56,309 nucleotides of DNA from Kiritimatiellia bacterium (lineage in GTDB: Bacteria; Verrucomicrobiota; Kiritimatiellia; RFP12; UBA1067): positions 1 through 56,309 of the forward strand of contig JAZUHK010000071.1 of the NCBI GenBank assembly GCA_045641645.1. The letters are read 5' to 3'. Shown here one piece after another: positions 25,161-45,431 of this stretch (position 1 is the first letter of the stretch; the number at the start of each line of letters is the position of its first letter). A program made the position numbers and the translations under genes. Under the pieces are notes generated by a model, which ran no database searches, was not told the origin of the DNA, and saw only the letters and a program-made list of their open reading frames with translations.

Positions 25161-28100
25161 TTATTCCCCGTATTGCTCCCGCAGGATGTTAAACGGCACG
25201 TTTGTCACCTTCGGAATCACCAGGGAGCCCGCCGCCCATACTTCCTCGCCCAGCACGGACGCATGCGTCTCGCTCCGGTTCAGCAACAGGATGCCGGCGT
25301 ACTTGAGATTCTTATAGGGCTTCTCTTCGTACGTCAGGTCGCTCGTCCCCGTCAGGATGCCGGTCGCCCGCTTGAAGGTCAGCTTCACGTTCGCGGCGTT
25401 GCCCTTCGGCACGCTCACCGTGTTGCCGATCACGTCGACCGCCACGTCCACGGCCGACAGCGAAAAGGCGTCCGTCAGGTACGCACGCTGGAGATTGACG
25501 ACCGTGTCGTAGTAGCCGCCGACGGTATCCAGCGCCTGCGAAACGTCCTCGCCCGTCCAGCGGAAGAACCCTCCCGCGGGAACCTCCGTCACGGGTTCGC
25601 CGTCCGCCGGGAAGCGAATCGCCATCCACCCGCCGACCACCGCCGGCTTCTTGAACGCGAAGACCGGCACGAACACCGCCGGATCACCGCCCGTAAGATC
25701 GAGTCCGCCGACAATTGACGAGGCGGAGAACGACACGCCGTCGGCGCGGACGCCCGCGAGCTTGATCTTGCCCTTGGCGTCCAGCGTGAGCGTCAGGTAG
25801 CCGTTTCCAAGCGCATGGTCGCCGGGAACGAGCGCCACCGTGTAGTATCCGGCGAATCCCGCCATCTCCGTCACCCACTCCGTCACCTTCGAGTTGTCGC
25901 GGCACAGGAAACCGTTGTAAACGGTGTCGGGGGTGCCGCCCATCGTCAGCTGGCAGCTCGGCAGGTCGCCCCAGCCGACGGAATCCGTCGCCACGTAATC
26001 CGTCAGCGTGCAGGTCAGCTTGTTCGTCACGCCCTTCTGGATCTGCAGGAGCTCGGCAGCGAGGCGGACGGGGACTGCATTCGTGTCGGCACGGACAAAG
26101 CCCGTCGCCGTGAGCGACATGGTCTTTCCGTCCACGCTGACCTTGGCGGACAGCTTGCCGTTCGCCGCGGTTGTCAGCTTCACCTGCGCAAGCGCTGCCG
26201 CGCCGGAGACGCCGTCCGCCTTCGCGACACCCGAGAACGTCCCGACCGCCGACTGAAGCGCAATCACATTGAAGGCGTTCGTGCCGATCACCTTCTTCTG
26301 CGCGTCCTGGATCTCGGCAAAGAAGTACCCCACCTTCGTCGGCACGCCACGGACGTACCAGGCCTTCGACGCCTTGTCCTGCTCGAGCTTGATGCCGTCC
26401 GGAAGCTTGCCGAGCGCAACCTTCAGCTTCGCGGTGGTCTCCGTTGAGATCGGCTCGTCGTATCCGTAGCGCACCGCCTGGTAGACCGTCTCGTAGTCGC
26501 CGCCGGCGAAGACGTACCTGATGTCCGAAACCTTCTTCGCCCCGGCGGGAATGGTCAGGGTCGCCGTCTTGCCGGGAACCGCGGACGAAAACTCCAGCAG
26601 TTCACCGCTATCCACCCGGTACTGCAGGACCGCGAGGCCGGTCACGGTCAGCGTCAGCGCGCTTGAACCCTCGAAATTGACGAAGTCGCCGTTCTCACCC
26701 ACGAACCATGTGCCGGACTTCCCTTCCTTGACCGTGTAGCCGGCCGTCTTCGAGAGCGTCTTCTTTGTGTAGTCCGCCAGCGTCTGGGCGAACTGCTGGT
26801 TGAGCGCATAGACCGTGATGGACGAGGCGGCGAGCGTCGCCTTCTCAAGCCCGCTGCCCGTGTTTGCCTTCAGTTTGATCGTGTACTTGGCGGACGCCTT
26901 CCGATCCGTCGCCGCAGGGATATGGACCTGAAGCTCCTTCTGGCCGGCAGAGCCGGCGTTCCAAAGGAGGTTCGTCGCCTTGTCGTCCAGCGCGGACGTG
27001 TCGCAGACAATCGAGATGTCGCCATACGAGCCGACCGTGCGCTCAAGTTTGATCGCGAGCTCCGAACCGGCCGTGACCGTGAACTCCGGCTTCTTGACAT
27101 TCTTGTTATCACTGTTCGCAACCTGAATGGTTCCCGGCTGTTTCTTGGCGACTTCCGTCAGCGTCACGGTCGTGACGGCCTTCTCGCCGCCGCCGACAAA
27201 CGAGGCGGGGTAGAAGCCGTCGTCGCCGTCCTTTGCGTCTGTAAGCTCAACCGTAAACGCACGCACGACATCGTGGAAGGTCGGCGTCAGGTCGGGGATG
27301 AGGTCGATCGTCACGTTCTTCGCCTTGTTGTCGCCGTTCGCCCACTCGAGCACCAGATCCTCCAGCTTGTAGAACTTCGTATTCTCATCGCCCTCCTTGC
27401 CGCGGACGATGCCTTTCGCATACGCTCCGTCCACCGTCGAGAGCTTAACGCGCACCTTGCCGTCCTTAGCCGTACGGTTCACGGCGATCGAAACGGACGC
27501 TGCGCCCTCCTTGACCTTGTACTCGGCCTTGGCGAACTTGATGGCACCGACGTTCGCGTACAGGCCGGACAGCGAATAGGAGGTGTCCTTCGGGCTCGCC
27601 GGAACCTTGTGCTGAACCTTGAGGTAATACTTGGTCTTGGACGTCGGCAGGACGAACTGGTGGACATTGGTCACGCCGGCGCACAGCGTTTCGCCGTCGT
27701 GCAGGATCGAGAAGACGGCGTCCCCGCCCTCGCTCTGGTTCATCACGATGTCATAATAGTAGCCGTCCTTGCCCGTCAGCGCAAAGTAGTCGGCGTCGTC
27801 GTCCGTCCACAACGTGCGGCTTTCGGTCTTCTCCTTGTTGGATAGGCTCCAGCTGTAAGCGCCTTTTTCCTCGTCGTCCTTCGGATCGTACTTGTCGCTG
27901 TAGACGGCGAATGCCTCGACGGGCTCATCCTGCGCCAGCAGCGAGACCGTCACGGACGACGGTGCGACGACGAAGTTCTTGACCGCTCCGAACTTGACCG
28001 TCGCCGTCGTCACGGCCCTGTTTGCCGCGATCGGGAGGGCGATCGTCGTGCCGAGCGGATACTTCATCGACTCGGATCCGAGCGTCCAGGTGGCCTCGGG

Positions 28101-29909
28101 ACAGCCCTTCGCATCCACGTGAAGAAGCCCGACATGCTCCGAATCAAGCTCCGCGTCGTTATAGGCGATCGTGTGGACCTTGTAGCGCGGACAATCAAGA
28201 CCGTACGTCCCGGCCGTCCTGATGCGGATGAAGTAAATGCCGTTTTTCTCAGCCGCGAAGAAGAGCCCCGAGTCCGAACCGGGATTGATGTCGCCGTTTG
28301 CCTTGACCCTGGACTCGCTCTTCCCGTTCATCAGGAAGATGTCCGCCGTCAGCGACGTCTCGGTCTCGGACTCGAAGGTCACGGAAACGCCGTAGCCGAG
28401 CCCCGCCCGCACCGGAAGCTTATAGACATCATACCAGTCGCACTTGCCGAGCCGATGCCAGTCGCTCCCCGTCTCGTCAATCTGCGCCGGCTGGGCCCAC
28501 TTGATGCCGCGGGCAGGCGCGAGCATCGTCGCGCCGACGTAAGTATCGTCGGCATCGTCATAGGCGTCTGGGTCGCCGGCTTTCGGCGCAACCTCCTCGA
28601 TGGTCAGCCGGATCTCGTTGTCCGCCAGCGGCTCGTCCAGGTCGTCATCCGCAAGGTTCTGACATACACCGATATAGTAAACTCCGGCATAGTCCGCCGT
28701 AAAGCCGCAGCGGACATCGCACGAACCGTCACCCTTCTTGGTGCACTCGTACTTCGGGTTCCCCGTCTTGGATGTCTGCTGGCTTTCGGTCAGCGAGGCG
28801 TATTTCGGATCGAAGTTAGTGCCGTAAATGCGCATCAGGAGATTCGTCTTCGAGCCGTTCGTCTCGACGACGTAGCGCTTGCCTTTCGTGAGCTTTACCG
28901 TCTTGAAGAGCTTCTGGTCGATGATGGTGTCGTAATACCGGTTATCCGTCGCGTTGATCCGGCCCGGTACGAAGCAGACGCCTTCCGCGCCCAGCGGAAG
29001 GACTCCCGGCCGATGCTCCTCGAGCGTGCGCGTCGGCAGTATCTGATAGCGCAGCGTGACCTTCGCCGCAGGATCCACCGCCGTCTCGGCGACGAGGATC
29101 GTTCCGTTGCCGTCGTTGTCGGGATCGAACGACCAGGAATTGTTGCCCTCGGACGCCCATGGCGCGTAGGGCGTAAGCTTTCCCGTCACGCCAAAGCCGA
29201 GCGTGTACGGATTCGCCGTCGCACCGCCGTCCGTCGCAAAGAGATAGCGGCGGCCCGGCCAGAAGGGATTGACGGAAAAGACATAGGTGAACTCGCCATC
29301 GACAAAAGTCGCCGTCTTCGCCTGAGAGGCCGATTCCTTCGGCTCGACCTTGTCGGGATTGTCCTCAATGCCGAGGGGAAGCGCGTTCGCCTGCTGGTAA
29401 TGCAAGGTCGCGCTCGCCGCATTCGTGCCGGCGATGTGGACATAGTAGTCCCAGCTCGGCGGATCGCTCATCTCGGGATCGTCCTCGTCGATGTACCACT
29501 CGTCCTCCACCATCACCTGCATGCTCCCGGGCTTCCACTTGCCGGAAAACTCCTGGAACATCGCCCCGGGCTCGAACTCGTCCTTGTCCGGATCGGCCTC
29601 ACGCGGATAGATATCGTAGAAGTCGATCTCGGCCGGATCAGGACGAGAACCATCTGGTCCGGTCAGCCAGAGGGAATATGCCTTGCCGCGCTTCAGGTTG
29701 ATCTTGTAGTAATAGACGTAGTTCGTCGCGTCATATGTGCCCGCCTCGGAACTGTAGGCCTTCGTCAGCGTGACCTCGGTGGTTAGTTCGAAGGTCGTTG
29801 GCGTCCGTTTGGCAGCCTCCGCCTCGCAGCTGCCGGGATTGGCACCAAGAGCCGTCGCAGAAACGACGACTCCGACCATCGATACGACGAATGTTCGCAA
29901 TGATTTCAC
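25161..29909 (-). CDS. Large secreted protein with PPC-like and Calx-beta-like domains and the shared C-terminal module
   Basis: Likely GTG start at 29909 (VKSLRTF...) with a signal peptide. DxYDxxDD...A and DxDYF motifs (PPC-like); IKFAKAEYKVKEG...V.RT (Calx-beta-like). Confidence 0.75.
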   Translation of the reverse strand: MKSLRTFVVSMVGVVVSATALGANPGSCEAEAAKRTPTTFELTTEVTLTKAYSSEAGTYDATNYVYYYKINLKRGKAYSLWLTGPDGSRPDPAEIDFYDIYPREADPDKDEFEPGAMFQEFSGKWKPGSMQVMVEDEWYIDEDDPEMSDPPSWDYYVHIAGTNAASATLHYQQANALPLGIEDNPDKVEPKESASQAKTATFVDGEFTYVFSVNPFWPGRRYLFATDGGATANPYTLGFGVTGKLTPYAPWASEGNNSWSFDPDNDGNGTILVAETAVDPAAKVTLRYQILPTRTLEEHRPGVLPLGAEGVCFVPGRINATDNRYYDTIIDQKLFKTVKLTKGKRYVVETNGSKTNLLMRIYGTNFDPKYASLTESQQTSKTGNPKYECTKKGDGSCDVRCGFTADYAGVYYIGVCQNLADDDLDEPLADNEIRLTIEEVAPKAGDPDAYDDADDTYVGATMLAPARGIKWAQPAQIDETGSDWHRLGKCDWYDVYKLPVRAGLGYGVSVTFESETETSLTADIFLMNGKSESRVKANGDINPGSDSGLFFAAEKNGIYFIRIRTAGTYGLDCPRYKVHTIAYNDAELDSEHVGLLHVDAKGCPEATWTLGSESMKYPLGTTIALPIAANRAVTTATVKFGAVKNFVVAPSSVTVSLLAQDEPVEAFAVYSDKYDPKDDEEKGAYSWSLSNKEKTESRTLWTDDDADYFALTGKDGYYYDIVMNQSEGGDAVFSILHDGETLCAGVTNVHQFVLPTSKTKYYLKVQHKVPASPKDTSYSLSGLYANVGAIKFAKAEYKVKEGAASVSIAVNRTAKDGKVRVKLSTVDGAYAKGIVRGKEGDENTKFYKLEDLVLEWANGDNKAKNVTIDLIPDLTPTFHDVVRAFTVELTDAKDGDDGFYPASFVGGGEKAVTTVTLTEVAKKQPGTIQVANSDNKNVKKPEFTVTAGSELAIKLERTVGSYGDISIVCDTSALDDKATNLLWNAGSAGQKELQVHIPAATDRKASAKYTIKLKANTGSGLEKATLAASSITVYALNQQFAQTLADYTKKTLSKTAGYTVKEGKSGTWFVGENGDFVNFEGSSALTLTVTGLAVLQYRVDSGELLEFSSAVPGKTATLTIPAGAKKVSDIRYVFAGGDYETVYQAVRYGYDEPISTETTAKLKVALGKLPDGIKLEQDKASKAWYVRGVPTKVGYFFAEIQDAQKKVIGTNAFNVIALQSAVGTFSGVAKADGVSGAAALAQVKLTTAANGKLSAKVSVDGKTMSLTATGFVRADTNAVPVRLAAELLQIQKGVTNKLTCTLTDYVATDSVGWGDLPSCQLTMGGTPDTVYNGFLCRDNSKVTEWVTEMAGFAGYYTVALVPGDHALGNGYLTLTLDAKGKIKLAGVRADGVSFSASSIVGGLDLTGGDPAVFVPVFAFKKPAVVGGWMAIRFPADGEPVTEVPAGGFFRWTGEDVSQALDTVGGYYDTVVNLQRAYLTDAFSLSAVDVAVDVIGNTVSVPKGNAANVKLTFKRATGILTGTSDLTYEEKPYKNLKYAGILLLNRSETHASVLGEEVWAAGSLVIPKVTNVPFNILREQYGE

Positions 29910-29922
29910 AGCTTCACCTGCC

Positions 29923-32900
29923 TTATTCCGCCTCTGCGGGCTCAATCGTTACCACACCACCGCGCTTGACGCTGCTGAGCCATTTCTTGAACGCGCCCGT
30001 CGTTTCATCCAGATCATAACCGATCTTGTCGGTGATGTACCAGCAACCGTTCACGAACGAAGAAGGCACCGTCCCGCAGCATCCTCCATAGCCGAGCTGG
30101 ATCACGCCCGCGTAGGTCGCCGAAAGCTTCTTGTCCGCCTTGGTCTTCGCGTCGGTGTAGTGGAGATCGAACTTGCCGGAGACGATGCCGGTTGACTTGT
30201 TGTACGAAAGCGTGATCTTGTTCGCACCGCCAGTCGAATCCTTCCGCGTGATCGAATGTTCGCCGACTGTCACCCCAATCGCCTCGACCGACTTGAACGA
30301 ACCATAGTAATCAGACGCAAACGAATCGGGCACGACCGACAGCGTCATATCGGTCGAACGTTGCTGTTTTTCGCAACAGCAGCTCAAGTCATACGTTGAA
30401 TCATAGATGCCGCCATAGGGCTTATAGCGCACGGTGAACTCGTTCTTGTCCGTCTTCGTCGAATTTTCCGTATGCCGCCACCAGGTGTACACAGCCCCCT
30501 CGTCAAGGTTAGGAACCGAGACCGACTCCCAGCAGTCCTCGCCTTCCACAGCCGAAGCCGCGCCGCGCTTGATCGCAACGACGCCCGCGAACTTGTCCTT
30601 AGAGGTGAACTTGACCATCGGCAGCCACGCCGACTCTTCCGTCGCCTCGGCAAGAACGCCACTACCGGAGATCTTTGTTCCGTTCGGCAGCATGCCAGCC
30701 CAGGTCACCGTGCCGGAATTCGCCTGCGAGGAGGACATCTTCTTGATGGTCAGGTAGCCGCTGCCAACTGGGGCATAATCACTGCCGGGACCCGTGATGA
30801 TCGGCTCTTCGAAGGTGTCCAGCTTCGCCGCGAGCGTCACCGTGTAGTAGCCGCTGTAGTCCGTCGCAGGATGCGTCTTCGACCACGGGGTCTTGCCGAA
30901 ATCCAGCTGATTGAGCGCCGCGGACGACGTGAACATCCGCAGATGCACCTCTCCGTCCGGATCGGCCTTGACCTCCATCGTCCAGTCCTTGAAGTTCTTG
31001 GTGGTGCCGACAAGCGTACAGGAGCCGCAGCCATAGTCCACACTCGCCTGATCGATCTCATAACAATCCCAGCTCTTGGCCGCGAACGAGACCGTGCCGC
31101 TCTCGCAGAGGAACTTCGCGCTTGCCTTGCCCGTCGCCGGCAGCGTCAGCTGCACCGTTCCGATGAGCCGCAGGGCATCGTCCCCTTCAAGCTCCTCGTC
31201 TTTCGCGAAGATCATCAGGTCCTTGAACGTGCGGGACTTCGCGCACGAGGCGTTGAGCGCCTTCCCGCCCTTGCCCGTTCCGGCGTATGCCGGATCGACG
31301 ACCTTGTATGTGAGTTCGATCGTGAGTCCCGGCACCGACACCGTGGACTTGCTGCCCAGCTCCTTCGGACGCTTCTCGGTCACCTGGTAGACGGACGTGT
31401 AGGTCTTGCCCGCCTTGTCGTTTCCGGTCGGGACGCCGTAGACCGCCATCGCGTTCGCCGCCTTGTCCCAGACGACCTTGAGTCCGGACGGCAGGGAGCC
31501 GGATATCTTCTTGAAGGAGAGCTCGCCGCCGGCCACCGTACCCGTCACCGCATACGTGTTGGAGACGGCCGTGTAGCGGTAGAACGTGTCGGAAGCCGTC
31601 GTCTGCGCAAACGCCGGCGCATCCGTCGCGACCGAGACGATCGTAATGGAGCCGGCCTTGGAATCGACCTTAAGTGGCGATTCCGCCTGGAGCGTCAGCT
31701 TGACCGACTTACCAGCCGGCGGCAAGTTGCTGACCGTCACCGTCTTGTCGTCCTGATCCCGGTTCCCCCATCCAAGGCCCAGGAGGTTGTCGTAGTCGCC
31801 GCCCAGCACCACCGAGGCAACGCTCTTCTTGAGGTCAGCAAAGACTGGACCTTCCGCCGCGTCAATGCGGGAGAGGATAACCTTGACTTCCTCGTTCTCA
31901 CGAGCGTAAACCGTGAGTTTCTTCGCCCATTCGCGGTCGCAGCCACTGACCTGTACCCGCCCGGCGGACGGCTTCTGGTTCTCCTCGAAGTTAATCGTGA
32001 AACGCCCATAATCCACCATGTTCGTAATGACTCCCGCCTCAGTCTGCTCAATAATCTCCAAGTCGAAGACAACCTTGCCAGGACCGAAGTAATGGCTAAC
32101 CTCCTTGGTTTCGAACTCGCCGGCCGTCACCAGAATGTTGCTGACGCACGCCTCGAGCGGCAGAACGTCCTTCCATTCGACAGTCTCGGACCATTCGTTC
32201 GTCGCAACACCGTTAATCTTGAAGCGCGGATAGTCCTTCGTCATCCAGCCAGCGTCCGGCGCATAATCATAGAAGAACGTGGTTTCCTTGGCATTGAGCG
32301 AGACCTTGATCTTCACATCGCCCGACACTCCCTCAATCCGGCGATACGTAATGGCGACGTCATCGGTCTCCTTGCGGGTGATGTCCGTCGATTTCACCGT
32401 GGTCTTCTTTTCGGGCAGCGTCTTGGCCTGCGGCTCGAAGCCAACCTTGCCGGGGACCCACTTCTGATAATCAACCGAGCCGCCTTCCTGCGGGCAGACA
32501 AGCGTAACCATACCCGGGATCTTTGCCGTAAAGACAAAGCCGTCCGACCCCGTCACCGCCGCCAGCGCGTTCGTGTTCGCCTCGGCCTCCGGATCCAGTC
32601 CCGTTAGGCGATACTGCACACCGCTTTCAAGCTGGATTACCACCTCCTTCGATCCCGCCGGAGCCGTGGCCGTGGCCCGACCGTCCTGCGGAACGAGAAT
32701 CGTTGACCCCGTCACCGCATAGCCGATGAAGTTCTTGTCGGCGGTGCTGTCCACGGCGAACTCATCACTTGTAATATCAAAGCCCTTGACCAACAGGTAG
32801 TAGTCACCCGCCTCGGCGAAGGTCTGCGTCAGTTCGACGCCGTCCGACAATGTGCCCGTCACACCTGATCCGGCGCTCTCAAACGAGCCGTCCTCCGTCC

Positions 32901-34707
32901 GCTTCCAGAACTGCACAGCCACCTTGGCGGACGACGCCCCCTTCACCTGAACCCTCTGCTTCGCATTGCCACCGAAGCCGCTGAGTTTGAACGCATCCTG
33001 GAAGTCGGCGTTGCAAAGCTCGTTCGAGGCCGTTCCGCCGTTGGCGGCAAACGGGATCGCGCCGTCGCCCGGATAGTTGTTTTCGATTTCCGTATCATCC
33101 GCGTGATCGCCCGACTCCGCAGCGATCGCCAGCATCTCGTCGAAACGCTTGATGTAGTTGTCGAAGTTGTCCCGATCCGCTTTCATCGGACTCACCGAGG
33201 CGAAACGCGTAAAGCGCGCCGCAACCGTGCCGTCCTTACGGAGCAGGACGAAGATCGGCACACCCGTGCGGTACTTATTACCGTCCTCCGGACGATGAAA
33301 GCCGCCCTTGTCCGTATTCGTCACGGCGAGCTTGTGGAACTTCGCCATCACCGCTGCCGCCTCATCATCCGTCGCGCCCTTGCGCGTCAGATAGCCGAGA
33401 CCGCTACGCGACATCGCGTTCGTGAGCGCCTCGTCAGCGCCAGACTGCGGGAACTCCTTGGGCCGCGCGAGCGTCGTCTCAAACGCCTTCTTCGAGAACA
33501 GCGTCGGCGAGGCAACCGTCTCCGGCGTCGGGCCGGCCGAGCTGTAGTTGGGGATGTCCATCGACACCAAAGCGACATTCCGCGTCTTCGCCCACTGACA
33601 GAACTTGTTGATGCCGGACTGGTCCTTCACCTCCAGGAAGTTGCGGTCGGTGTTCGCGCAATCGGGGCACCACTTCGACCCTTGGATCGAAACAAGCGTA
33701 TAGGCGGCGCCTTCGGCCTTCGCCACCACTTGCGTCGCAAGATCGAGATCCATCGTCCACTCGCCAAACTCGAAATCCGGCGCAATGCCGTTGGCATACG
33801 GATCCTTGCGCTCACCGAGCCACAACGGGTTCGCCGCCGAGGGTTCGCTTTTCACATAAGTGATGTGGTTTGTCGCGTGCGCAAGGCCGTCCGCCGCATC
33901 AATCAGGAGAAGTGTCAGCCTGTCGCCATCCTCATAACCAGCCGTGTCGACCTTCGTCAGGTCAAGGGCGACGGTCTTGTTCGTATCGTTCACAGCCCAG
34001 TCAATCGTCCGCCCCAGCGCGGCAATCGCCTGACCGTCCTTGCCGAGGACGCGGAACGTCACGTTCGTCTCAAACTCGGGTGCCTTCTTCTCGCGCGTCA
34101 GCTCGACGGCGACGGTCTTCGTACCCGCCTCGAACTCGAGGCGATTGCCCTCCTCGTCCGGCGCGGTGAACGTGCCGCCGACATAGCGGACTGGCTCATA
34201 CTCGCCCAAAATCGCATCGCATGTGCCCATGAATTGCTCGGCCAAGGTGCCCGACTTGACAAGCATAGAACCCGAACGTCCGCAGAACTTGAACTTGCCC
34301 GTCAAGTCGTTTTTCCCATCACCGTCCTTATCCCAATACAAACCCAAAAAGGGCAGAGAATTACCCGTTTGGGACATTCCTACAACCTTGGAATAATTCG
34401 CACCCTTCGTCTTGTCGCCCTCAATGCCCAAGAGAAAGATGTAGCCACGTTCCCGTCGCCATTGAACAACCGAATCTTCCGTGTTCGCGGCCTCCAGCTT
34501 ACCACACTGACTACACCCATCGCGCACGAACATCGCGACCACAGGGACGCACTCCTCCTTCGCGATGCGCATCGCCTCATCATACTGGACATTCCACTCG
34601 CCGGGCTCAACCGGAAGGGATTTCGAGTACGGCATCAGAATCTCCGCCGCCGCGACCTGCGCGGCCAAGAGTGCAACACTTGCAACCAGAACCTTGTTCT
34701 TCATCAT
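29923..34707 (-). CDS. Large secreted protein with two thioredoxin-like CxxC domains and a Cys-rich version of the shared C-terminal module
   Basis: Signal peptide; PGEWN...VRDGCSQC and FGEWT...GSKWCPDC; C-terminal CCC, GGCCG and GCWY. Confidence 0.78.
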   Translation of the reverse strand: MMKNKVLVASVALLAAQVAAAEILMPYSKSLPVEPGEWNVQYDEAMRIAKEECVPVVAMFVRDGCSQCGKLEAANTEDSVVQWRRERGYIFLLGIEGDKTKGANYSKVVGMSQTGNSLPFLGLYWDKDGDGKNDLTGKFKFCGRSGSMLVKSGTLAEQFMGTCDAILGEYEPVRYVGGTFTAPDEEGNRLEFEAGTKTVAVELTREKKAPEFETNVTFRVLGKDGQAIAALGRTIDWAVNDTNKTVALDLTKVDTAGYEDGDRLTLLLIDAADGLAHATNHITYVKSEPSAANPLWLGERKDPYANGIAPDFEFGEWTMDLDLATQVVAKAEGAAYTLVSIQGSKWCPDCANTDRNFLEVKDQSGINKFCQWAKTRNVALVSMDIPNYSSAGPTPETVASPTLFSKKAFETTLARPKEFPQSGADEALTNAMSRSGLGYLTRKGATDDEAAAVMAKFHKLAVTNTDKGGFHRPEDGNKYRTGVPIFVLLRKDGTVAARFTRFASVSPMKADRDNFDNYIKRFDEMLAIAAESGDHADDTEIENNYPGDGAIPFAANGGTASNELCNADFQDAFKLSGFGGNAKQRVQVKGASSAKVAVQFWKRTEDGSFESAGSGVTGTLSDGVELTQTFAEAGDYYLLVKGFDITSDEFAVDSTADKNFIGYAVTGSTILVPQDGRATATAPAGSKEVVIQLESGVQYRLTGLDPEAEANTNALAAVTGSDGFVFTAKIPGMVTLVCPQEGGSVDYQKWVPGKVGFEPQAKTLPEKKTTVKSTDITRKETDDVAITYRRIEGVSGDVKIKVSLNAKETTFFYDYAPDAGWMTKDYPRFKINGVATNEWSETVEWKDVLPLEACVSNILVTAGEFETKEVSHYFGPGKVVFDLEIIEQTEAGVITNMVDYGRFTINFEENQKPSAGRVQVSGCDREWAKKLTVYARENEEVKVILSRIDAAEGPVFADLKKSVASVVLGGDYDNLLGLGWGNRDQDDKTVTVSNLPPAGKSVKLTLQAESPLKVDSKAGSITIVSVATDAPAFAQTTASDTFYRYTAVSNTYAVTGTVAGGELSFKKISGSLPSGLKVVWDKAANAMAVYGVPTGNDKAGKTYTSVYQVTEKRPKELGSKSTVSVPGLTIELTYKVVDPAYAGTGKGGKALNASCAKSRTFKDLMIFAKDEELEGDDALRLIGTVQLTLPATGKASAKFLCESGTVSFAAKSWDCYEIDQASVDYGCGSCTLVGTTKNFKDWTMEVKADPDGEVHLRMFTSSAALNQLDFGKTPWSKTHPATDYSGYYTVTLAAKLDTFEEPIITGPGSDYAPVGSGYLTIKKMSSSQANSGTVTWAGMLPNGTKISGSGVLAEATEESAWLPMVKFTSKDKFAGVVAIKRGAASAVEGEDCWESVSVPNLDEGAVYTWWRHTENSTKTDKNEFTVRYKPYGGIYDSTYDLSCCCEKQQRSTDMTLSVVPDSFASDYYGSFKSVEAIGVTVGEHSITRKDSTGGANKITLSYNKSTGIVSGKFDLHYTDAKTKADKKLSATYAGVIQLGYGGCCGTVPSSFVNGCWYITDKIGYDLDETTGAFKKWLSSVKRGGVVTIEPAEAE

Positions 34708-35708
34708 TTAACCTGCTCCTTGTCTTTGTCGTTTGCTTTTAAATCAACGTTCGCTGCGGCCACCAATTCGGCCAGCTTGCGCTTAAAGAGGTTTTTTGCA
34801 TACTCCTTCTTTGCCGCATCAACAATTTCATCTTTCGGCGCAGGATAGAGAAACCTCCCCAAGCGAAAGTAAATGCGCGAGACCGAGAAGCCCTCGTCTT
34901 GCTCCAAACTGTCAAGCCGCGCGATGACAACCCCATTGTCAGACGCAATTGGCGGTGAGATGTCACCCGGCTTCGCGGCCTTGAGCCAGGCAAGAAGCGT
35001 GGGCTCGTCGGATAGGAATTTCGCATCTACGACCGCCCATTCGCCAGCATCCGCGCGCTCTTCCTCAATCTCAGAGAATTCCTTCGCGGCGGACGAGAAA
35101 TCCATCCCCCGGCAGATCCGCTGCCAGATGTTCGTTGCCTTCGCGAACTGCAGGCGATTCGTCTCAACCATCGCCAGATTCCATTGTTCCATCAGACGGA
35201 TCTGCTGATCGGCATAGTCCGGCGGCAGGTTCGTTGGCGTCTGCTCTGCCCAGTATCTTTCCATCGTCGCGCGCAACGCTTCAGCGCGAACTTGATCGTC
35301 CCAATACCGACGATTGAGCCCCTCAAGCTTCATGAGATCGTCGTACGAACGGTCATTCTTCGTCCGGAAATTCGCAAACGCCTGCCGCTGGCAACTCGCA
35401 AGCTCGTTCGTGCCTGGTTCGACCCCAGACTCCCTGGCTGCAGCCGCAAGAACCATATCCTCAACCCAGTAGGAGGCATAGCCATTTCTGAAGGTTTCCC
35501 GCAGTCGATCAAGACCATTGGTCGAGCCACGCTTATGACCGAAAAGAATGACAATATTCTGCGCCCGCGACTCAATCTCGGAAGCCGTGAGCACCTGTCC
35601 GCAGACGGAGGAAACAATATCACTCGGGGCTTGCTCCCGCGAACAGCCCCAAGCGGCAAAGCCCATCAATACCAAACATAAAAACCTATAGAAACACCTC
35701 TTGTTCAT
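34704..35708 (-). CDS. SurA/PrsA-like peptidyl-prolyl isomerase (foldase) lipoprotein
   Basis: Lipobox FAAWG-C; SurA-N-like helices; parvulin-like GMDFSSAAKEFSE...AGEW...PGDISPPI...G. Confidence 0.72.
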   Translation of the reverse strand: MNKRCFYRFLCLVLMGFAAWGCSREQAPSDIVSSVCGQVLTASEIESRAQNIVILFGHKRGSTNGLDRLRETFRNGYASYWVEDMVLAAAARESGVEPGTNELASCQRQAFANFRTKNDRSYDDLMKLEGLNRRYWDDQVRAEALRATMERYWAEQTPTNLPPDYADQQIRLMEQWNLAMVETNRLQFAKATNIWQRICRGMDFSSAAKEFSEIEEERADAGEWAVVDAKFLSDEPTLLAWLKAAKPGDISPPIASDNGVVIARLDSLEQDEGFSVSRIYFRLGRFLYPAPKDEIVDAAKKEYAKNLFKRKLAELVAAANVDLKANDKDKEQVK

Positions 35709-35817: not shown

Positions 35818-36582
35818 TTAGAGAACCGGGGTCTCGGTCTCGGCGTCAGCCTTGACGAACTTCGCCGGAGTCAGGGTCTTCTCGATGTTAGCACCGCCAC
35901 GGATGGCGTCAACCTTGTCCTGACGATAGGTGAGCGACCAACGGCCATAGGCAATCACCTTGGCGGCATCGCCAGACACCCAATCAACATCACCCTTGCA
36001 CGGCGCGAAAACCTGAGCAGTGCCAGTCTCCTGGTACTCGCAACCGATGATGTCACCGCACTTCGGGGTCTCGAGCGTACCAGCGAAGAAGCCGTTCGCG
36101 CTCTTGAGCTTGCGGGACTCCGGATTGAACGCGCCAAAGCCAGCGAGATAGAGGTCGTCCATCTTGATGCCAATCTGCGCCTTGTTCTTCAGACCACCAT
36201 TGCGGAGGACGTCGAAGACCTCGAAGCTGACCTCATCGAACTTGACCTGCTCCTTGTTGGCGTTCCAGAACCAGAGTTCGTCGCCGAGCGTCGCAAACGT
36301 GTTGCACTCGCACTCCGCGCAACCCGGATTCTCGAGCGTGAAGCCACCGTAGATGTAGCCCGCGACACGATAGGAAGCCGGCTTAGCCCAGCAACCCGAC
36401 TCGTAATCGCAGGTCGTCACGCTGCCCTTCGTGAGGGACTTAGCGACAACCGTCTTGCCCGCGAGCTTCAGACGATAGGCAAAGCCGCAATAGTTCTTGG
36501 TCGAGCAAGGATCGTCATCCGTGGCCGCCACAACAACACCGCCCATCGCAACCGCGAGAGCAGCAATCATGAGTTTTTTCAT
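35818..36582 (-). CDS. Secreted Cys-rich protein, paralog A (silent orientation)
   Basis: MKKLMIAA signal peptide; 10 Cys including CxxCxC; motifs AYRxKLAGKT, CWAKPASYR, LRNGGLKNKAQ, KLKSANGFFAG and YGRWS. Confidence 0.9.
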   Translation of the reverse strand: MKKLMIAALAVAMGGVVVAATDDDPCSTKNYCGFAYRLKLAGKTVVAKSLTKGSVTTCDYESGCWAKPASYRVAGYIYGGFTLENPGCAECECNTFATLGDELWFWNANKEQVKFDEVSFEVFDVLRNGGLKNKAQIGIKMDDLYLAGFGAFNPESRKLKSANGFFAGTLETPKCGDIIGCEYQETGTAQVFAPCKGDVDWVSGDAAKVIAYGRWSLTYRQDKVDAIRGGANIEKTLTPAKFVKADAETETPVL

Positions 36583-39433: not shown

Positions 39434-39592
39434 TCGGACACGGTGTCCGTGATCTTGATTCCAAGGAGAGGACAAGGTTAACCTCGCTGAACGCGGACAG
39501 ACCGTTTGCTGAAAGCGTAAGGCGAAAAAAGAAGGAACAAAAAAATGAAGAAACTCATGATTGCTGCCGTCGTTGTTGCGATGGGCGGTGTT
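39434..39592 (+). repeat. Right inverted repeat (leader plus signal-peptide start of gene B)
   Basis: Begins with TCGGACAC-G-GTGTCCG (39434-39449); matches the left repeat. Confidence 0.92.
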
Positions 39593-40339
39593 ATGTCTGC
39601 TACGGCCGCCGTTGATGAGGGTTGCGACTATGTCGGCTGCCCGTTCGCATATCGGATCAAGCTCGCTGGCAAGACCGTTGTCGGCAAGACCGCGAAGTCG
39701 GACAAGCTGACCCCGAAGGAGGAAGGAGAAGGATGCGGCTACGCCACCGATTGCTGGGCGAAGCCGGCTTCCTATCGTCTCGCAGGGTACATCTGGGGCG
39801 ACGGGGTCAAGGGCGAGGACGAGTGCTCCAAGTGCGGATGCATCGACTACACGACATTCGACAACGAAGCGATCTTCTGGGATGCCAACAAGGTTCAGCA
39901 GTTCGCTGACGTCACCTCGGTGGAGTTCGAAGTCTTCGACATCCTCCGCAACGGCGGCCTCAAGAACAAGGCGCAGATCGCGTTCAAGCTCGGCGACGTC
40001 CAGCTCGCTGGCTTCGGCGTTTACAACCCGAAGACCCAGAAGCTCAAGAGCGCGAACGGCTTCTTCGCCGGTAAGCTCGATGCTCCGAAGTGCGCTGGTG
40101 AGTGGAACAAGTCGAGCTGCGACTACGGCGAGGGCAAGACGGCTCAGGTCTTCGCTCCTTGCGCGCTTGACACGGCGGAGGTTGCCAAGGCGGCGATTGT
40201 CTACGGCCGTTGGTCGCTCACTTATCGTGCCGACAAGGTTGCTGCCTACAGCGCGAAGAAGGGTGGCGACAAGAGCGTCTTCTATCCGTCGGCGTTCAAG
40301 TACGCTGACGCCGTTGCTGAAGACGAAGACAACGACTAA
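39545..40339 (+). CDS. Secreted Cys-rich protein, paralog B (promoter-facing orientation)
   Basis: Same signal peptide, 10 Cys and conserved motifs as paralog A; the only well-supported plus-strand gene in the window. Confidence 0.92.
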   Translation: MKKLMIAAVVVAMGGVMSATAAVDEGCDYVGCPFAYRIKLAGKTVVGKTAKSDKLTPKEEGEGCGYATDCWAKPASYRLAGYIWGDGVKGEDECSKCGCIDYTTFDNEAIFWDANKVQQFADVTSVEFEVFDILRNGGLKNKAQIAFKLGDVQLAGFGVYNPKTQKLKSANGFFAGKLDAPKCAGEWNKSSCDYGEGKTAQVFAPCALDTAEVAKAAIVYGRWSLTYRADKVAAYSAKKGGDKSVFYPSAFKYADAVAEDEDND

Positions 40340-41398: not shown

Positions 41399-41435
41399 AA
41401 AACGAAAGCCCGAGGTCGCAAGACCTCGGGCTCGT
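41399..41435 (-). terminator. Intrinsic terminator after the adhesin-like fusion gene
   Basis: AGCCCGAGGTC-GCAA-GACCTCGGGCT, with a TTTCGTTTT tail on the minus strand. Confidence 0.8.
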
Positions 41436-41456: not shown

Positions 41457-44400
41457 TCAGGGGACGGCACTATAGGTGAAGCCGGTCGGATAGAGGCAGT
41501 TGAAGTTGTCGTCCTCCTCAATCTGACGAACCTTGTCGGCCTTGTAGGTCATCGTCCAGCGGCCATAGACAATCGCGGCCTCGGAGTTCACAGGCTCCGT
41601 AAGTGCGCACGGCTCAAAGACCTGAGCAGGCGTCGTGCCCCACTCGCAGTCTTCGCCAAGCTTGCCGCAGGTCGGCGCGGCGAGCACGCCAGCGAAGAAG
41701 CCGTTCGCACTCTTGAGCTTGCGGGTCTGCGGATTAAATGCGCCGAAGCCCGCGAGCTTGATATTCTCGCCGATCTTGATGCAAAGCTGCGCCTTGTTCT
41801 TGAGACCGCCGTTGCGGAGAATGTCGAAGACGTCGAACGTCAGGGGCTCGCCCGCAAACGCCTGCTTGCGGTCGGCCGTCCAGAAGTGACTCTGCACGTC
41901 CGCAAAGGCGTTGCATTCGCACTCCTCGCACTCGGCCGGCTCGGTGGGCGAGGCGTTGTAGATGTAGCCCGCCACACGGAAGGACGCCGGCTTCGCCCAG
42001 CAATTGGACTCGTAGTCGCAACCGCCGACCTTACCGCTCGTCAATTCCTTGCCCGTCACCGTCTTGCCCGCGAGCTTGACACGGTAGGCATACGCACAAT
42101 AGAGGTGGTCGCAGCCGCCTGCCTCCGCCGTGATGAACACGAGCGTCGAGAACTGGCCCATCTGAAGCGTCACCTCGCCGTCACCAACCTTATACTGGCC
42201 GGGGAAATCCTTCGAGCTGGTGAAGGAGGAAACCTTCGACATTTCGCGCATGTCCTCACCATGGCAGTGATAGACCGCCTTGAGATTGTCGGTGTCGGCA
42301 AACGCCACCTTGAACTGGATCGGCTTGGTGATCTTGCTGGCGTCGGCCACGAGCTCGGGAGTCTGCGGGCCAGCCGAAGTCGTCTCGATATACATAAGCT
42401 TCACATCAACCGGCTTCGCATCAAGAAGCGTCATGGGCGGACAATACCTCTTCTCAAACGCCTCCTTGGCGGCCGTAACATTGCCATCGGCGCTGCCTCC
42501 CTTCGGATCAGTAATGGCAAGCGTCGCATCCGCCGTAATCCAACCCGTCCGATCCTTGGAAATATTCTTTGCCACCGCCATCAGCGCCTCATCAGTCTTC
42601 TCCGTCTTCGGAGAGCCCTCCGTGGCCCAGTCGCCGGCAGCTTCCTTGTCAATCTCGGTAATGCGCTCCTGAATCGTCACATACGCCCAGACATTCGTCG
42701 AGTAGTAGTTGTCACACTCGACCTTGCACCAAACCTTCTTCTCGTAGCAAATATCCTTGAGCTCGGCGCGCGCGGCGGCCTCTTCAAGCCAGGTCGAGCC
42801 GCCGTCAACCGAGTAGGTAAACTTCGGGTTGTCCGACTTCTTCAGCAGTGAAGTCTCCACGACGATAAGCTGGCCGTCGCCGACCGACGTGTCGTTCGTG
42901 ACGATCGAAACCGGCTTCGCCCATGCCCACACGGGAATCTTCGTCTCCTCCGTGCCGTTGTCATAGCCGTTGATCACCGCCTTGTTAATCGTGAAGGTGC
43001 CGGGCGTGAACTCGACAATGTAGTTCTGGTTCGCCGTCAGGATCTTGTTCGTCGTGATGTCGCCCGTGTAAGTGCCGGCATCGGCACTGCCCGACTTGCG
43101 AACGAACGCCGTCACCTTGCCCTGATTGTTAGTAATGCCCGCGGAGATGAGGGCGTTGATCGTATTCGTTTCGCCAACTGCATAATCACCGGTAATCGTC
43201 CACTCCGTCTCCGAGAGATTGGCCGTCGCCGTGCCGTCATAGGTCTTCGAGGCGTCGCCGGCCGTCACCGTCACGGTGAGCGGGGTGATCTTAAGCGTGG
43301 CCGACTGCGATTCGTCGGAGGGCTTATAGGTGTCATCCCCGATGATGACGACCTTGACATCAACCGGCGTGTCAACGACGTCCTTGAAAGCCGCATAGAA
43401 ATTGGCAACCGTGTTCGTCGTCCAGGTCGTACCGCCGTCCGTCGAATAGGCGAGCTTGTAGTAAGACGCAACGAGCGGCTTGCCCGAATCCTTGTCCGTC
43501 ACGCTCACGGTGACGTTCGTCGACGCTCCGTTATACGGACGATTGACCGCGGAAACGGTGAACTCAAATTCCGGCAGCTCGACGATCCAGGCGTTGGCCG
43601 CAGCCGCAGCACCGGTCGCCAGCGTCCCCTGCTTCTTGCCATCAAGCGAACGGGAAAGCTCCATCGTTGCGTCGCCATTGTTCGGATTGACGTTAAACGT
43701 ACCGTCGCCGTTCGAGGTGCAGAACTTCTGATCGCCCTTCGCATCGGCAATCGCCTTCGCCATGAACTCGGGCGTCGTACGGACCTTGATCTCGAGCTTC
43801 TGCCAAACGCTGCCGTTCAGGTTCGAAACGACGCACGTAACCTGATCGCCATTGACCTTCGGTTGCTTCTTGGTATCGGTCTCCTTCACCCAGCCAGTGT
43901 CATCGGCCATATAGTCATCGGCCACCGGATCGTCCTTGCCCGTCCAGTTCCACAGCGTCACGCTGCCAGTTTCAGTGGGGATACTCATCGTGCCGCCCGC
44001 CGTGACGACCTTGTCGGCCGCCGCCGCCGCGAAGGACGGGAACTTCACATACTTGTTAATGGCATCTTCAACCTTATCGGCATCGCCATAGTTTTCCTGC
44101 TCATCAATACGCGTCGCATACTTGTATCCAGCCTTGTACCCAACATTGACACCATCCGTAGTGCCGACGTAATTCACGTTATTCGTCATATACGTCATCG
44201 GATCCATCAGTGCCACAAAGCCATTCCACTGTGCATCCGTCATCTTCTTATCCGTTCCGTCCTTTTCATATGTGTTGGGCGTAAACCACGGCGGCATCTT
44301 CGCCTTGGGGTTCGACGTGGTGCCAATGTTATCAAAGAATGGATCGTCGCTACTACCCTTGGAGTCCACGAGCCAAAGCACTTGATTCTTCTCATAGAAC

Positions 44401-45275
44401 TTTTTCAGGCAACGCGCCGCGCAATCTTCCAAGTTCTTGTCGGGATTGTAACCGGCGACCAAACGTGTGCTGTCGAACGACAAGACAACGTAATCGTACT
44501 GCTTCCACGCGCCACTGGCAATGTCAAGCTTGTTAGTGATGAGCGTCAAATACGCCTTCAGATTCTTGTGCACACTGGCTTGCGCTGCAGTGCTCCCGCT
44601 TGTAGAAGTCAAAGTTGGAAAATCAGACGCCTCGGCAGTAGCATCCTTCGTAAAGACTTTAGGGCCATACCCTGACACAGGAGTGGTGTTGTCCGCCGAC
44701 CCGAAATAGGAACCGCCATCATTGTCAAATAGGTAGAAATCAACTTCACCCTTCGACGTCATCGCATTAACCGCACGCGCAAGAATTTCCGTGGTCAAGC
44801 CATGCTTGCCGCAACGCGAACCAATGTAGAGAATCTGAGGCGTACGGTCGGTCTTGCCGCAGTCAACGTGCGTGACGACGCGAATCGTCGCGTTCGACTT
44901 GCCGTCTTCGCCATCATCCGCCTTGATCGACTTTTCCATCTCGACCGTCGAGACATAGACATTGAAGGTGTACTCGACATCCTCCGGGCTGCGCGCCACG
45001 ACTTCGGCCTGACCGTTCGCCACGGAAGTGATGGCCACGACGTTCTTGTTGTCGTCGTCCTTCTCCCACTCGACCGTCGCAACCGTCTTGTCGGACGAGT
45101 GCAGAACCCAGTTCGCCGTGGCCGCATCCGCGACATTGAGCTTAGCGAGCATGTTCGACGTCACGCCAACCGTCATCGTCACGTCACACGACTCATCGAG
45201 ATCAGCCGCCCAAGCGGAAGACCCGAGAACCACCGCCGCCACAAGGGCAAGCGCCGACTTGATCATTTTTTTCAT
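41457..45275 (-). CDS. Large secreted adhesin-like protein (Ig/Big-2-like and MBG-like repeats) with a C-terminal copy of the Cys-rich domain
   Basis: Start MKKMIK with a signal peptide; SSDKTVATV (Big-2-like); VTVTAGDASKTYDG...NY...PGTFTI (MBG-like). The last ~220 aa are homologous to paralogs A and B. Confidence 0.85.
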   Translation of the reverse strand: MKKMIKSALALVAAVVLGSSAWAADLDESCDVTMTVGVTSNMLAKLNVADAATANWVLHSSDKTVATVEWEKDDDNKNVVAITSVANGQAEVVARSPEDVEYTFNVYVSTVEMEKSIKADDGEDGKSNATIRVVTHVDCGKTDRTPQILYIGSRCGKHGLTTEILARAVNAMTSKGEVDFYLFDNDGGSYFGSADNTTPVSGYGPKVFTKDATAEASDFPTLTSTSGSTAAQASVHKNLKAYLTLITNKLDIASGAWKQYDYVVLSFDSTRLVAGYNPDKNLEDCAARCLKKFYEKNQVLWLVDSKGSSDDPFFDNIGTTSNPKAKMPPWFTPNTYEKDGTDKKMTDAQWNGFVALMDPMTYMTNNVNYVGTTDGVNVGYKAGYKYATRIDEQENYGDADKVEDAINKYVKFPSFAAAAADKVVTAGGTMSIPTETGSVTLWNWTGKDDPVADDYMADDTGWVKETDTKKQPKVNGDQVTCVVSNLNGSVWQKLEIKVRTTPEFMAKAIADAKGDQKFCTSNGDGTFNVNPNNGDATMELSRSLDGKKQGTLATGAAAAANAWIVELPEFEFTVSAVNRPYNGASTNVTVSVTDKDSGKPLVASYYKLAYSTDGGTTWTTNTVANFYAAFKDVVDTPVDVKVVIIGDDTYKPSDESQSATLKITPLTVTVTAGDASKTYDGTATANLSETEWTITGDYAVGETNTINALISAGITNNQGKVTAFVRKSGSADAGTYTGDITTNKILTANQNYIVEFTPGTFTINKAVINGYDNGTEETKIPVWAWAKPVSIVTNDTSVGDGQLIVVETSLLKKSDNPKFTYSVDGGSTWLEEAAARAELKDICYEKKVWCKVECDNYYSTNVWAYVTIQERITEIDKEAAGDWATEGSPKTEKTDEALMAVAKNISKDRTGWITADATLAITDPKGGSADGNVTAAKEAFEKRYCPPMTLLDAKPVDVKLMYIETTSAGPQTPELVADASKITKPIQFKVAFADTDNLKAVYHCHGEDMREMSKVSSFTSSKDFPGQYKVGDGEVTLQMGQFSTLVFITAEAGGCDHLYCAYAYRVKLAGKTVTGKELTSGKVGGCDYESNCWAKPASFRVAGYIYNASPTEPAECEECECNAFADVQSHFWTADRKQAFAGEPLTFDVFDILRNGGLKNKAQLCIKIGENIKLAGFGAFNPQTRKLKSANGFFAGVLAAPTCGKLGEDCEWGTTPAQVFEPCALTEPVNSEAAIVYGRWTMTYKADKVRQIEEDDNFNCLYPTGFTYSAVP

Positions 45276-45354
45276 GTTTTTTCTTTCTTGTTTTTTGAAC
45301 AAAATTGAACACACTTTACCGATGGCAGACTACACCACGGGCAAAGTTGGAGGT

Positions 45355-45387
45355 AGTATATCATAATCGCGGCGACTTGCGCAAGTC
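45355..45387 (-). promoter_or_regulatory. Sigma70 promoter with a 14 bp palindrome over the -35 box
   Basis: TTGCGC-18 nt-TATACT with an extended TG; perfect palindrome GACTTGCGCAAGTC at 45374-45387. Confidence 0.55.
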
Positions 45388-45431
45388 ACAATCGCGAAAA
45401 AATACATACTATTTTGCGCAACAAAGGAACG

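What the first reader, a model, noticed from the sequence alone, without database searches (positions are those of the whole stretch)
41457..42130. Third copy of the 10-Cys domain fused as the C-terminus of a 1,272 aa adhesin-like protein
Seen in sequence: the last ~220 aa keep all 10 Cys positions (plus two extra) and the motifs AYRVKLAGKT, CWAKPASFRVAGYI, CEECEC, DILRNGGLKNKAQ, KLKSANGFFAG and YGRW of paralogs A and B. Inference: the domain acts as a display or polymerisation module that incorporates passenger domains into the same structure as the stand-alone subunits. This gene is outside the switch and has its own promoter.
Basis: partly seen in the sequence, partly recalled or inferred. 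Interest (0 to 1): 0.75.

Follow-up and report, generated by a model that had tools for sequence, protein, structure and literature searches.

The report
Shared cysteine-rich barrel module on adhesin
A large adhesin-like protein ends in a cysteine-rich barrel domain that the same bacterium also makes as two small separate proteins, and the domain probably lets the big protein pair with them or with itself.

Summary
The last ~220 aa of the 1,272-aa ORF (41457-45275, minus strand) are a true third paralog of proteins A and B: 53% and 50% identity, all 10 Cys kept plus two extra. The fusion is not an assembly artefact. Fused relatives come from other assemblies, and a contig of another run bridges the junction.

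The domain matches no Pfam or NCBIfam family. It has 242 cluster representatives and was found in one order of the phylum only. AlphaFold2 models it as an up-and-down beta-barrel with weak fold matches, best Z 7.4.

Stand-alone members are normally single-copy. They head a conserved operon: barrel, PPIase, then two ~1,600-aa proteins.

The passenger head folds like the VWA heads of pilus tip adhesins such as PitA, SpaC and RrgA. Fused barrels sit at about ten separate places in the domain tree, each beside stand-alone barrels. Orthologous passengers carry unrelated barrel subtypes.

A complex model pairs A with the fused domain: score 0.88, best control 0.01, through a two-fold symmetric interface.

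Best reading: a self-pairing docking module. Polymerisation, cellular location and the true partner are not shown.

The parts
41457..45275 (-). Fused gene: 1272 aa from ATG plus stop (the open frame extends to a GTG at 45314). It reads signal peptide, Ig-like segment, VWA-like head, MBG-like and Ig-like stalk, then the C-terminal 10-Cys barrel.
41460..42128 (-). C-terminal 10-Cys (here 12-Cys) barrel domain, the third paralog of A and B
43635..44951 (-). Passenger head (residues 122-560 of the 1285-aa frame). The AF2 model resembles the VWA heads of pilus tip adhesins and the integrin beta headpiece.
42990..43274 (-). MBG_2-like segment. It scores 17.1 bits here, below the 25-bit cut-off; 7 of the 19 fused or extended forms scanned pass it.
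45360..45389 (-). Promoter-like hexamer pair upstream of the fused gene (9 of 12 matches)
   Evidence: a consensus match only
41406..41433 (-). Terminator-like hairpin just after the stop codon
   Evidence: a consensus match only
35818..36582 (-). Paralog A, stand-alone barrel protein (254 aa), first gene of the conserved operon
39545..40339 (+). Paralog B, stand-alone barrel protein (264 aa)
34704..35708 (-). PPIC-type PPIase. Its homologue follows the stand-alone barrel gene in 7 of 10 related loci.
29923..34707 (-). 1594-aa protein with a thioredoxin-like N-terminus that carries a CxxC motif; conserved operon partner
25161..29945 (-). Second 1594-aa protein (PPC domain), conserved operon partner in 5 of 10 loci

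Best explanation
The C-terminal ~220 aa form a secreted, disulfide-stabilised beta-barrel that acts as a self-pairing docking module. The stand-alone proteins (A, B and their relatives) use the same surface to pair with each other. In the fused protein, the module ties a long adhesin-like passenger (VWA-like head, MBG-like and Ig-like stalk) either to a second copy of itself or to the resident stand-alone subunit. It would thereby join whatever envelope structure the conserved operon builds (barrel, PPIase, thioredoxin-like giant, second giant). Shown: the paralogy, the recurrence of the fusion, the synteny, and the mismatch between the barrel tree and the passengers. Modelled only: the barrel fold, the VWA-like head, and the symmetric pairing. 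Inferred: surface location, a docking function, and pairing inside the cell.
For: (1) Paralogy: E 2.9e-68 and 1.5e-64 to A and B. (2) The module is reused. Ten longer proteins of 526-1249 aa end in it. Ten of the 150 listed representatives carry it after more than 80 N-terminal residues and two carry it at the N-terminus before a coiled coil. Other passengers include BACON (P0193), an N-terminal segment that looks ice-binding-like plus repeats that resemble InlB B-repeats (read by eye and recalled, not scanned; L035), and MBG-like arrays (P0053, P0056). All 5 of 5 relatives of the passenger head end in a barrel-family domain. (3) Coupling to stand-alone subunits. In a 186-row tree, fused barrels lie at about 10 separate places, each next to stand-alone barrels: P0193 with P0129 (96), P0183 with P0127/P0135 (100), P0198/P0200 with P0113/P0145 (99), and the window's clade of 7 inside the B-like clade (95). 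Heads that are 59-62% identical (window, P0048, P0183, P0198) carry barrels from opposite halves of that tree. (4) Complex model of A (residues 21-254) with the fused domain. Score 0.88, best of 3 controls 0.01. That mark was reached by 116 of 157 solved complexes and 2 of 215 mismatched pairs, counts that hold only roughly because my own alignments were used. The runs agree in at least 96% of contacts and the partner's pLDDT is at least 83. The fused protein has no solved sequence relative. (5) The interface is symmetric (chain 1 residue = chain 2 residue + 11) and enriched in invariant columns: 17 of 38 invariant columns fall in 57 of 218 residues, odds ratio 2.8, one-sided Fisher p 0.005. 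(6) Stand-alone members head a conserved operon with a PPIase in 7 of 10 loci. Its giant proteins have thioredoxin-like CxxC N-termini, which fits the folding of a 10-Cys secreted protein. (7) The head model matches PitA (E 4e-8), SpaC, GBS104, Mfa5 and RrgA.
Against: Binding is a model's confidence, not a measurement. Two paralogs modelled with overlapping alignments may simply reproduce a homodimer. The barrel's fold matches are only middling (best Z 7.4, below the level the tool calls clear) and include both membrane and soluble barrels, so location is unresolved. A symmetric dimer does not by itself explain attachment to the cell. No outer-membrane partner or export route was identified. 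In 221 genomes of the family only this one has a fused copy beside stand-alone ones, so most carriers of the stand-alone protein use it without any fused adhesin. The tree is FastTree only, and the fuller search did not finish. The tree pattern could reflect gene conversion between co-resident copies without any need to interact.
Confidence: 0.45

Rival explanations
1. Fibre subunit with tip adhesin. The stand-alone barrel protein polymerises into a surface fibre or lattice. The fused protein is its tip or ancillary adhesin, incorporated through the homologous module, as FimH is in type 1 pili.
For: The passenger head resembles pilus TIP adhesins specifically: PitA, SpaC, GBS104, RrgA, Mfa5. 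The module is homologous to a separately encoded small subunit. That subunit is encoded with a folding factor, a PPIase. Its signal peptide and 5' region are unusually conserved. The two are predicted to bind.
Against: The only interface modelled is two-fold symmetric, which closes at a dimer. The fold is a barrel, not an incomplete Ig-like pilin. No usher, sortase or other assembly-platform family appeared in the Pfam scans of 20 window proteins. There is usually one subunit gene per genome and no fused adhesin.
Confidence: 0.2
2. Export or sorting signal. The C-terminal soluble barrel is recognised by an outer-membrane translocon and carries variable N-terminal cargo to the surface, as in type 11 secretion (Slam) cargo.
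For: The architecture is the same: a variable N-terminal effector plus a C-terminal ~8-stranded barrel (passages of 10.1101/2023.03.15.532718 read). TbpB, PmSLP-1, hemophilin, NHBA and fHbp barrels are among the fold matches at Z 4.7-5.9. Many passengers share one module.
Against: There is no Pfam match to any family, including the cargo barrel families, at E <= 0.01. No SlipAM/DUF560 match was found in the 71%-complete genome, though the control genomes were silent too, so this is inconclusive. According to the paper's abstract, T11SS is known from Proteobacteria. Stand-alone barrels with no cargo are the commonest form (165 of 186 rows), which is odd for a pure signal. Some members carry the barrel at the N-terminus.
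Confidence: 0.15
3. Integral outer-membrane anchor. The domain is a small OmpA/OmpX-like transmembrane barrel, cysteine-rich as chlamydial outer-membrane proteins are, and the stand-alone form is a major outer-membrane protein.
For: The top fold matches are PagL (Z 7.4), NspA (7.3), OprF, OmpA, OpcA and OmpW. The signal peptide is very conserved. Cysteine-rich outer-membrane proteins are known in Chlamydia, a related lineage (search listing only; the relatedness is recalled).
Against: De novo soluble barrels, Cap15 and avidins score equally, at Z 5.5-7.4. No OMP Pfam family matches. The proteins do not end in an aromatic residue, and two short helices follow the last strand. About eleven conserved basic residues face only one conserved acidic residue. 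An even-stranded transmembrane barrel would leave an N-terminal 1,050-aa adhesin-like passenger in the periplasm (established topology of such barrels, recalled).
Confidence: 0.15
4. Ligand-binding barrel. The domain is an avidin-, lipocalin- or YceI-like binder of a small molecule or anionic polymer, and the fusions simply add a binding specificity.
For: Avidins, YceI, the polyisoprenoid-binding protein and hemophores appear among the fold matches at Z 4.6-5.5. Basic residues are conserved.
Against: These matches are weaker than the generic barrel matches. The most conserved residues lie on the predicted protein-protein interface rather than in a pocket. The C-terminal placement after a long stalk points away from the adhesive tip.
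Confidence: 0.05

Closest known systems
Two-domain adhesins of chaperone-usher pili (FimH, PapG)
   Same: An adhesive N-terminal part is joined to a C-terminal module that is homologous to separately encoded structural subunits and couples the adhesin to them. The comparison is recalled from established knowledge.
   Different: The fold differs: a predicted closed barrel with five likely disulfides rather than an incomplete Ig-like pilin. No chaperone or usher family was seen. The predicted contact is a symmetric dimer, not donor-strand exchange.
Type 11 secretion (Slam) cargo: TbpB, fHbp, hemophilin
   Same: [quoted passage not shown] Fold-level matches reach Z 4.7-5.9.
   Different: There is no sequence membership and no DUF560 protein was found (inconclusive). 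The phylum differs, cargo-less stand-alone barrels dominate, and the barrel has 10 conserved Cys.
VWA-headed pilus tip adhesins: PitA (7w6b), SpaC (6m3y), GBS104 (3txa), RrgA (2ww8), Mfa5 (6to1)
   Same: The passenger head model matches them with Foldseek E 4e-8 to 4e-5 and probability 0.85-1.00. A long Ig-like and MBG-like stalk follows.
   Different: The head has no Pfam VWA match. No canonical DxSxS metal site is visible after the first core strand; instead Cys, His, His, Asp and Asp columns are invariant. There is no LPXTG sorting motif at the C-terminus. Attachment would be through the barrel module.
Small outer-membrane barrels (PagL, NspA, OmpA, OmpW) and cysteine-rich chlamydial outer-membrane proteins
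   Same: These are the best fold scores, Z 6.7-7.4. The domain is cysteine-rich and the signal peptide is conserved.
   Different: No family match. Soluble barrels score equally well. The sequence features and the fusion topology argue against a transmembrane barrel (see the rival explanations).

Membership tests
T11SS (Slam) cargo | C-terminal 8-stranded meander barrel with a hydrophobic core | tested here: inconclusive
   AF2 model with pLDDT 83.5. TbpB, hemophilin and fHbp barrels score Z 4.7-5.9, below the generic barrels at 7.4. The core composition could not be read because no coordinates were available.
T11SS (Slam) cargo | Barrel belongs to the TbpBBD or lipoprotein C sequence families | tested here: not met
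   No Pfam family at E <= 0.01 for A or B, and only a weak MBG_2 match for the fused protein. No NCBIfam family either.
T11SS (Slam) cargo | Cognate DUF560/SlipAM outer-membrane protein in the genome | tested here: inconclusive
   PF04575 gave no match in the 71%-complete genome, and none of the 14 control genomes matched either.
Chaperone-usher two-domain adhesin | Ig-like pilin domain, plus a periplasmic chaperone and an usher | tested here: not met
   The predicted fold is a barrel. None of the 20 window proteins scanned matched a chaperone or usher family.
Sortase-assembled pilus tip adhesin | VWA head | tested here: met
   Met at fold level only: Foldseek E 4e-8 to PitA and 6.8e-7 to SpaC. 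The model's pLDDT is 73.4. There is no Pfam VWA match.
Sortase-assembled pilus tip adhesin | C-terminal LPXTG sorting signal | tested here: not met
   The C-terminus read has no LPXTG motif and no hydrophobic tail.
Autotransporter (type V secretion) | C-terminal 12-stranded translocator domain | tested here: not met
   No autotransporter family matched. The model has about 8-9 strands in ~200 aa.
OmpA/OmpX-like 8-stranded outer-membrane barrel | Transmembrane barrel with a lipid-facing hydrophobic belt and a terminal aromatic signal | tested here: inconclusive
   Fold Z 6.7-7.4. No family match. The C-termini are not aromatic. The membrane-facing surface could not be assessed.
MBG domain (PF18676) | Score above the 25-bit cut-off | tested here: inconclusive
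   The window protein scores 17.1 bits. Among the 19 fused or extended forms scanned, P0048, P0049, P0050, P0052, P0054, P0100 and P0131 score 27-70 bits.

The most novel reading that the evidence does not exclude
One order of this phylum has an undescribed envelope system. A 10-Cys barrel subunit, folded with the help of its operon's PPIase and thioredoxin-like giant proteins, forms a surface scaffold. VWA-headed adhesins plug into it through a cognate copy of the same barrel. That copy is repeatedly swapped or converted to match the resident subunit. In this genome the two alternative subunits A and B, flanking a recombinase gene, would additionally change which scaffold the adhesin meets.
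Probability: 0.2. Interest if true: 0.8.

Novelty: new variant of a known kind. Interest (0 to 1): 0.6.

Why it matters
How large adhesin-like proteins are held on the cell surface is unknown for this little-studied group. This module gives a concrete, testable handle. It is an uncatalogued domain of about 220 aa that recurs at the end of varied giant proteins and also exists as a free subunit in a conserved operon. The domain tree tracks the free subunits rather than the passengers. That pattern is expected for a cognate docking pair and could be exploited to predict which surface proteins belong to which scaffold. If the pairing is real, the module would also be a compact, disulfide-stabilised dimerisation tag.

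Tried and rejected
- Pattern scans of GTDB contigs and JGI metagenome contigs with the domain alignment returned only short spurious matches of 26-29 residues. Genomic context for the fused relatives could therefore not be fetched. That P0048 and P0011, P0051 and P0020, and P0052 and P0014 lie together is inferred only from equal contig lengths.
- The ESM Atlas gave no hit above 0.81.
- Foldseek against the PDB gave nothing usable for the barrel: TM 0.1-0.25.
- PDB sequence searches were empty for the fused protein and the first giant. The second giant gave only one chance-level hit.
- I suspected that the C-termini of the operon's giants and of other large window proteins hide a distant copy of the barrel. 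hhalign probabilities were 0.1-2.3%, and no HMM hit appeared beyond the three copies. The idea is rejected at this sensitivity.
- Two look-ups of earlier scan findings by sequence were empty.
- The likelihood tree search did not finish in 288 s, so FastTree was used instead.
- Reads: all four runs are contigs. No strand-changing joints appeared among the joints shown, which neither supports nor refutes inversion at the A/B repeats. Stretches without cover (36702-37435, 39638-40371, 44409-44775) say nothing.
- The very high summed depth over the A/B 5' regions, including in an RNA library, cannot rank expression.
- No SlipAM match was found, and the controls were silent too.

Full report
**The observation**

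The minus-strand ORF 41457..45314 is open for 1285 codons from a GTG. Its last 233 residues align with paralog A (35818-36582, minus) at 53% identity and with paralog B (39545-40339, plus) at 50%. The ten Cys columns and all six quoted motifs are kept, and there are two additional Cys. A six-frame search of the whole assembly (1.77 Mb, 94 contigs, 71% complete) found exactly these three copies, with E 2.9e-68 and 1.5e-64 for A and B. An HMM search with all filters off found no others. The similarity is far beyond chance and the coordinates are right to within a few codons.

**Whether the fusion is real**

- Ten longer proteins of 526-1249 aa from other assemblies end in the same domain. P0048 is 77% identical to the window protein over its whole length.
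- In one coded public run, a 4,721-nt contig lies on 41189-42998 without a break, with 88 differing letters. It therefore crosses the passenger/barrel junction in a related strain.
- The same contig replaces two passenger blocks (42998-43238 and 44063-44856) with other sequence, so the passenger is variable while the barrel end is kept.

**The domain family**

A, B and the fused domain match no Pfam or NCBIfam family, and the fused protein has no solved relative by sequence. A profile search of 1.84 billion cluster representatives found 242 at E <= 0.001 and 114 at E <= 1e-10. Most are stand-alone proteins of 220-290 aa with the same strikingly conserved signal peptide.

In species-representative genomes the family was found as follows:
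- 37 of 201 genomes of the window's order.
- 38 of 221 genomes of its family.
- 11 of 401 genomes sampled across the phylum, all 11 in that one order.

It was not found in the other orders searched. Earlier notes of this scan call the organism a gut Kiritimatiellae bacterium; I did not test that label.

**Fold**

With a 47-row alignment, AlphaFold2 gives a confident all-beta model: pLDDT 83.5, pTM 0.80, eight or nine long strands and two short C-terminal helices. Foldseek found nothing usable. An all-against-all structural search gave a best Z of 7.4, which the tool rates as middling. Small up-and-down barrels of both kinds are mixed at the top:
- Outer-membrane barrels: PagL, NspA, OprF, OmpA, OmpW, OpcA.
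- Soluble barrels: de novo barrels, Cap15, avidins, and the C-terminal barrels of TbpB, hemophilin, NHBA and fHbp.

The fold class is therefore a small meander barrel, but these data do not settle whether it sits in a membrane. Several sequence features lean towards a soluble, disulfide-stabilised barrel. There are ten conserved Cys. About eleven conserved basic residues face a single conserved acidic one. There is no terminal aromatic residue. Helices follow the last strand. Passengers are attached at either end. This leaning is an inference.

**Context of the stand-alone members**

Stand-alone members are nearly always single-copy. In 7 of 10 related loci the gene is followed directly by a PPIC-type PPIase and a homologue of the window's 1594-aa protein. 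In 5 of 10 the second 1594-aa protein follows as well. This is exactly the order downstream of paralog A in the window.

The first giant and the 802-aa protein further downstream begin with thioredoxin-like segments that carry CxxC motifs. A folding factor and thiol-redox domains fit an operon whose first product needs five disulfides, but this link is also an inference. None of the other loci contains the integrase or the transposase that separate A and B here. The transposase segment 37844-39342 behaves as a multi-copy insertion sequence, and one contig lacks it.

**The passenger**

Pfam sees only a sub-threshold MBG_2 match in the window protein. Seven of the 19 fused or extended forms scanned pass the cut-off.

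I modelled residues 122-560 with 12 homologues (pLDDT 73.4). The best structural matches are:
- VWA heads of pilus tip adhesins: PitA at E 4e-8, then SpaC, GBS104, RrgA and Mfa5.
- Integrin beta headpieces.

'Adhesin-like' is therefore justified at fold level, and the resemblance is specifically to tip adhesins. The canonical metal-site motif is not evident. A different set of Cys, His and Asp columns is invariant instead.

**How the module is used**

Besides the window's architecture, the barrel ends proteins built from:
- MBG-like repeat arrays (P0053, P0056, P0057, P0131, P0137).
- A BACON domain (P0193).
- In a genome of another family, an N-terminal segment that I read by eye as ice-binding-like, followed by repeats that look like InlB B-repeats (L035). 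This reading is recalled, not scanned.

Two representatives carry the barrel at the N-terminus followed by a long coiled coil. A search with the head alone found five proteins, and all five end in a barrel-family domain, of three different subtypes.

In a FastTree of 186 near-complete domains (165 stand-alone, 19 C-terminal fusions, 2 N-terminal; 17 partial domains were dropped), the fused domains lie at about ten separate places. Each is beside stand-alone domains, several with local support of 95-100. Heads that are 59-62% identical (window, P0048, P0183, P0198) carry barrels from opposite halves of the tree. The barrel therefore follows the stand-alone subunits, not the passenger. That pattern is expected if the fused copy must match a resident partner, or if co-resident copies exchange sequence.

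One stand-alone protein (P0001, from a 756-nt contig) is B-like for 160 residues and then matches the window's fused tail in all of the next 60 residues and 85% of the last 20. This is either a real recombinant or an assembly chimera at the conserved motif.

**Pairing**

A complex model of mature A with the fused domain scored 0.88, against 0.01 for the best of three controls. That mark was reached by 116 of 157 solved complexes and by 2 of 215 mismatched pairs; the counts hold only roughly because my own alignments were used. The three runs agree in at least 96% of contacts and the partner's pLDDT is at least 83.

The interface has about 180 contacts and is two-fold symmetric: each residue of A corresponds to the fused-domain residue 11 positions lower. 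It is built from the Gly- and aromatic-rich strands that are the family's most conserved motifs. Seventeen of the 38 invariant columns fall in the 57 interface residues (odds ratio 2.8, p 0.005). This supports self-pairing and cross-pairing of paralogs but does not show it. A symmetric interface alone gives dimers, not polymers.

**Verdict**

- The reading as a shared display or docking module is supported by recurrence, by the tree and by the model.
- Polymerisation, surface location and the link to the operon's giant proteins remain inferences.
- The closest known logic is that of FimH-type two-domain adhesins and of type 11 secretion cargo (passages read), but defining features of both families are not met.
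- Searches of the paper library for Kiritimatiellae together with cysteine-rich outer-membrane proteins, and for Kiritimatiellota together with adhesin or von Willebrand terms, listed nothing on this family.

Noticed in passing
window 25161-36582 (minus strand); loci L025-L034: A conserved operon: 10-Cys barrel, PPIase, 1594-aa protein with a thioredoxin-like CxxC N-terminus, second 1594-aa protein (PPC domain), then a 279-aa and an 802-aa protein. Neither giant has a solved relative, and Pfam finds only one short domain match in each. The system appears undescribed.
   Followed up: partly
window 36535-36695 and 39434-39592: The inverted repeats upstream of A and B cover about 125 nt of near-identical 5' region plus the first 16 codons, and contain a palindrome (TCGGACACGGTGTCCG). 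In four public runs, one of them an RNA library, these segments have far higher summed contig depth than their surroundings. This suggests that the 5' region is conserved at the DNA level across many strains.
   Followed up: partly
window 37844-39342: The rve-type transposase segment is a multi-copy insertion sequence: one contig has depth 155 against about 8 for neighbouring contigs. It is missing from one contig that joins 37834 to 39368.
   Followed up: partly
protein P0001 (240 aa, 756-nt contig): A mosaic stand-alone barrel. Residues 1-160 resemble paralog B and P0003. Residues 161-220 are identical to the window's fused tail, and the last 20 residues are 85% identical. B and the fused gene are convergent here and share 72-96-nt inverted repeats over the conserved motifs, so an inversion or gene conversion could produce it. 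An assembly chimera could too.
   Followed up: partly
window 42114 and 45247: One contig of run X3 joins the start of the barrel domain to the 5' end of the fused gene and skips the 3.1-kb passenger. Whether other letters lie between the two sides is not known. It may represent a passenger-less variant or a homologue.
   Followed up: no
window 40429-41356: The gene 40493-41284 (minus strand) encodes a four-helix-bundle / 23S rRNA intervening-sequence protein fused to a topoisomerase-type zinc ribbon. It is bracketed by 54-nt inverted repeats (40435-40488 and 41303-41356) that are themselves palindromic.
   Followed up: no
window 43635-44951: The VWA-like head lacks an obvious DxSxS metal site. 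Across 13 homologues it keeps invariant Cys47, His50, His128, Asp153 and Asp160 (numbering of the 439-aa segment), which may be a different metal or catalytic site.
   Followed up: no
G057:C19:20602-21228 and L035 2-3319: Two further species-representative genomes of the order carry fused forms: a 730-aa open frame, and a 1106-aa frame whose N-terminus I read by eye as ice-binding-like, followed by repeats that look like InlB B-repeats (not scanned).
   Followed up: partly
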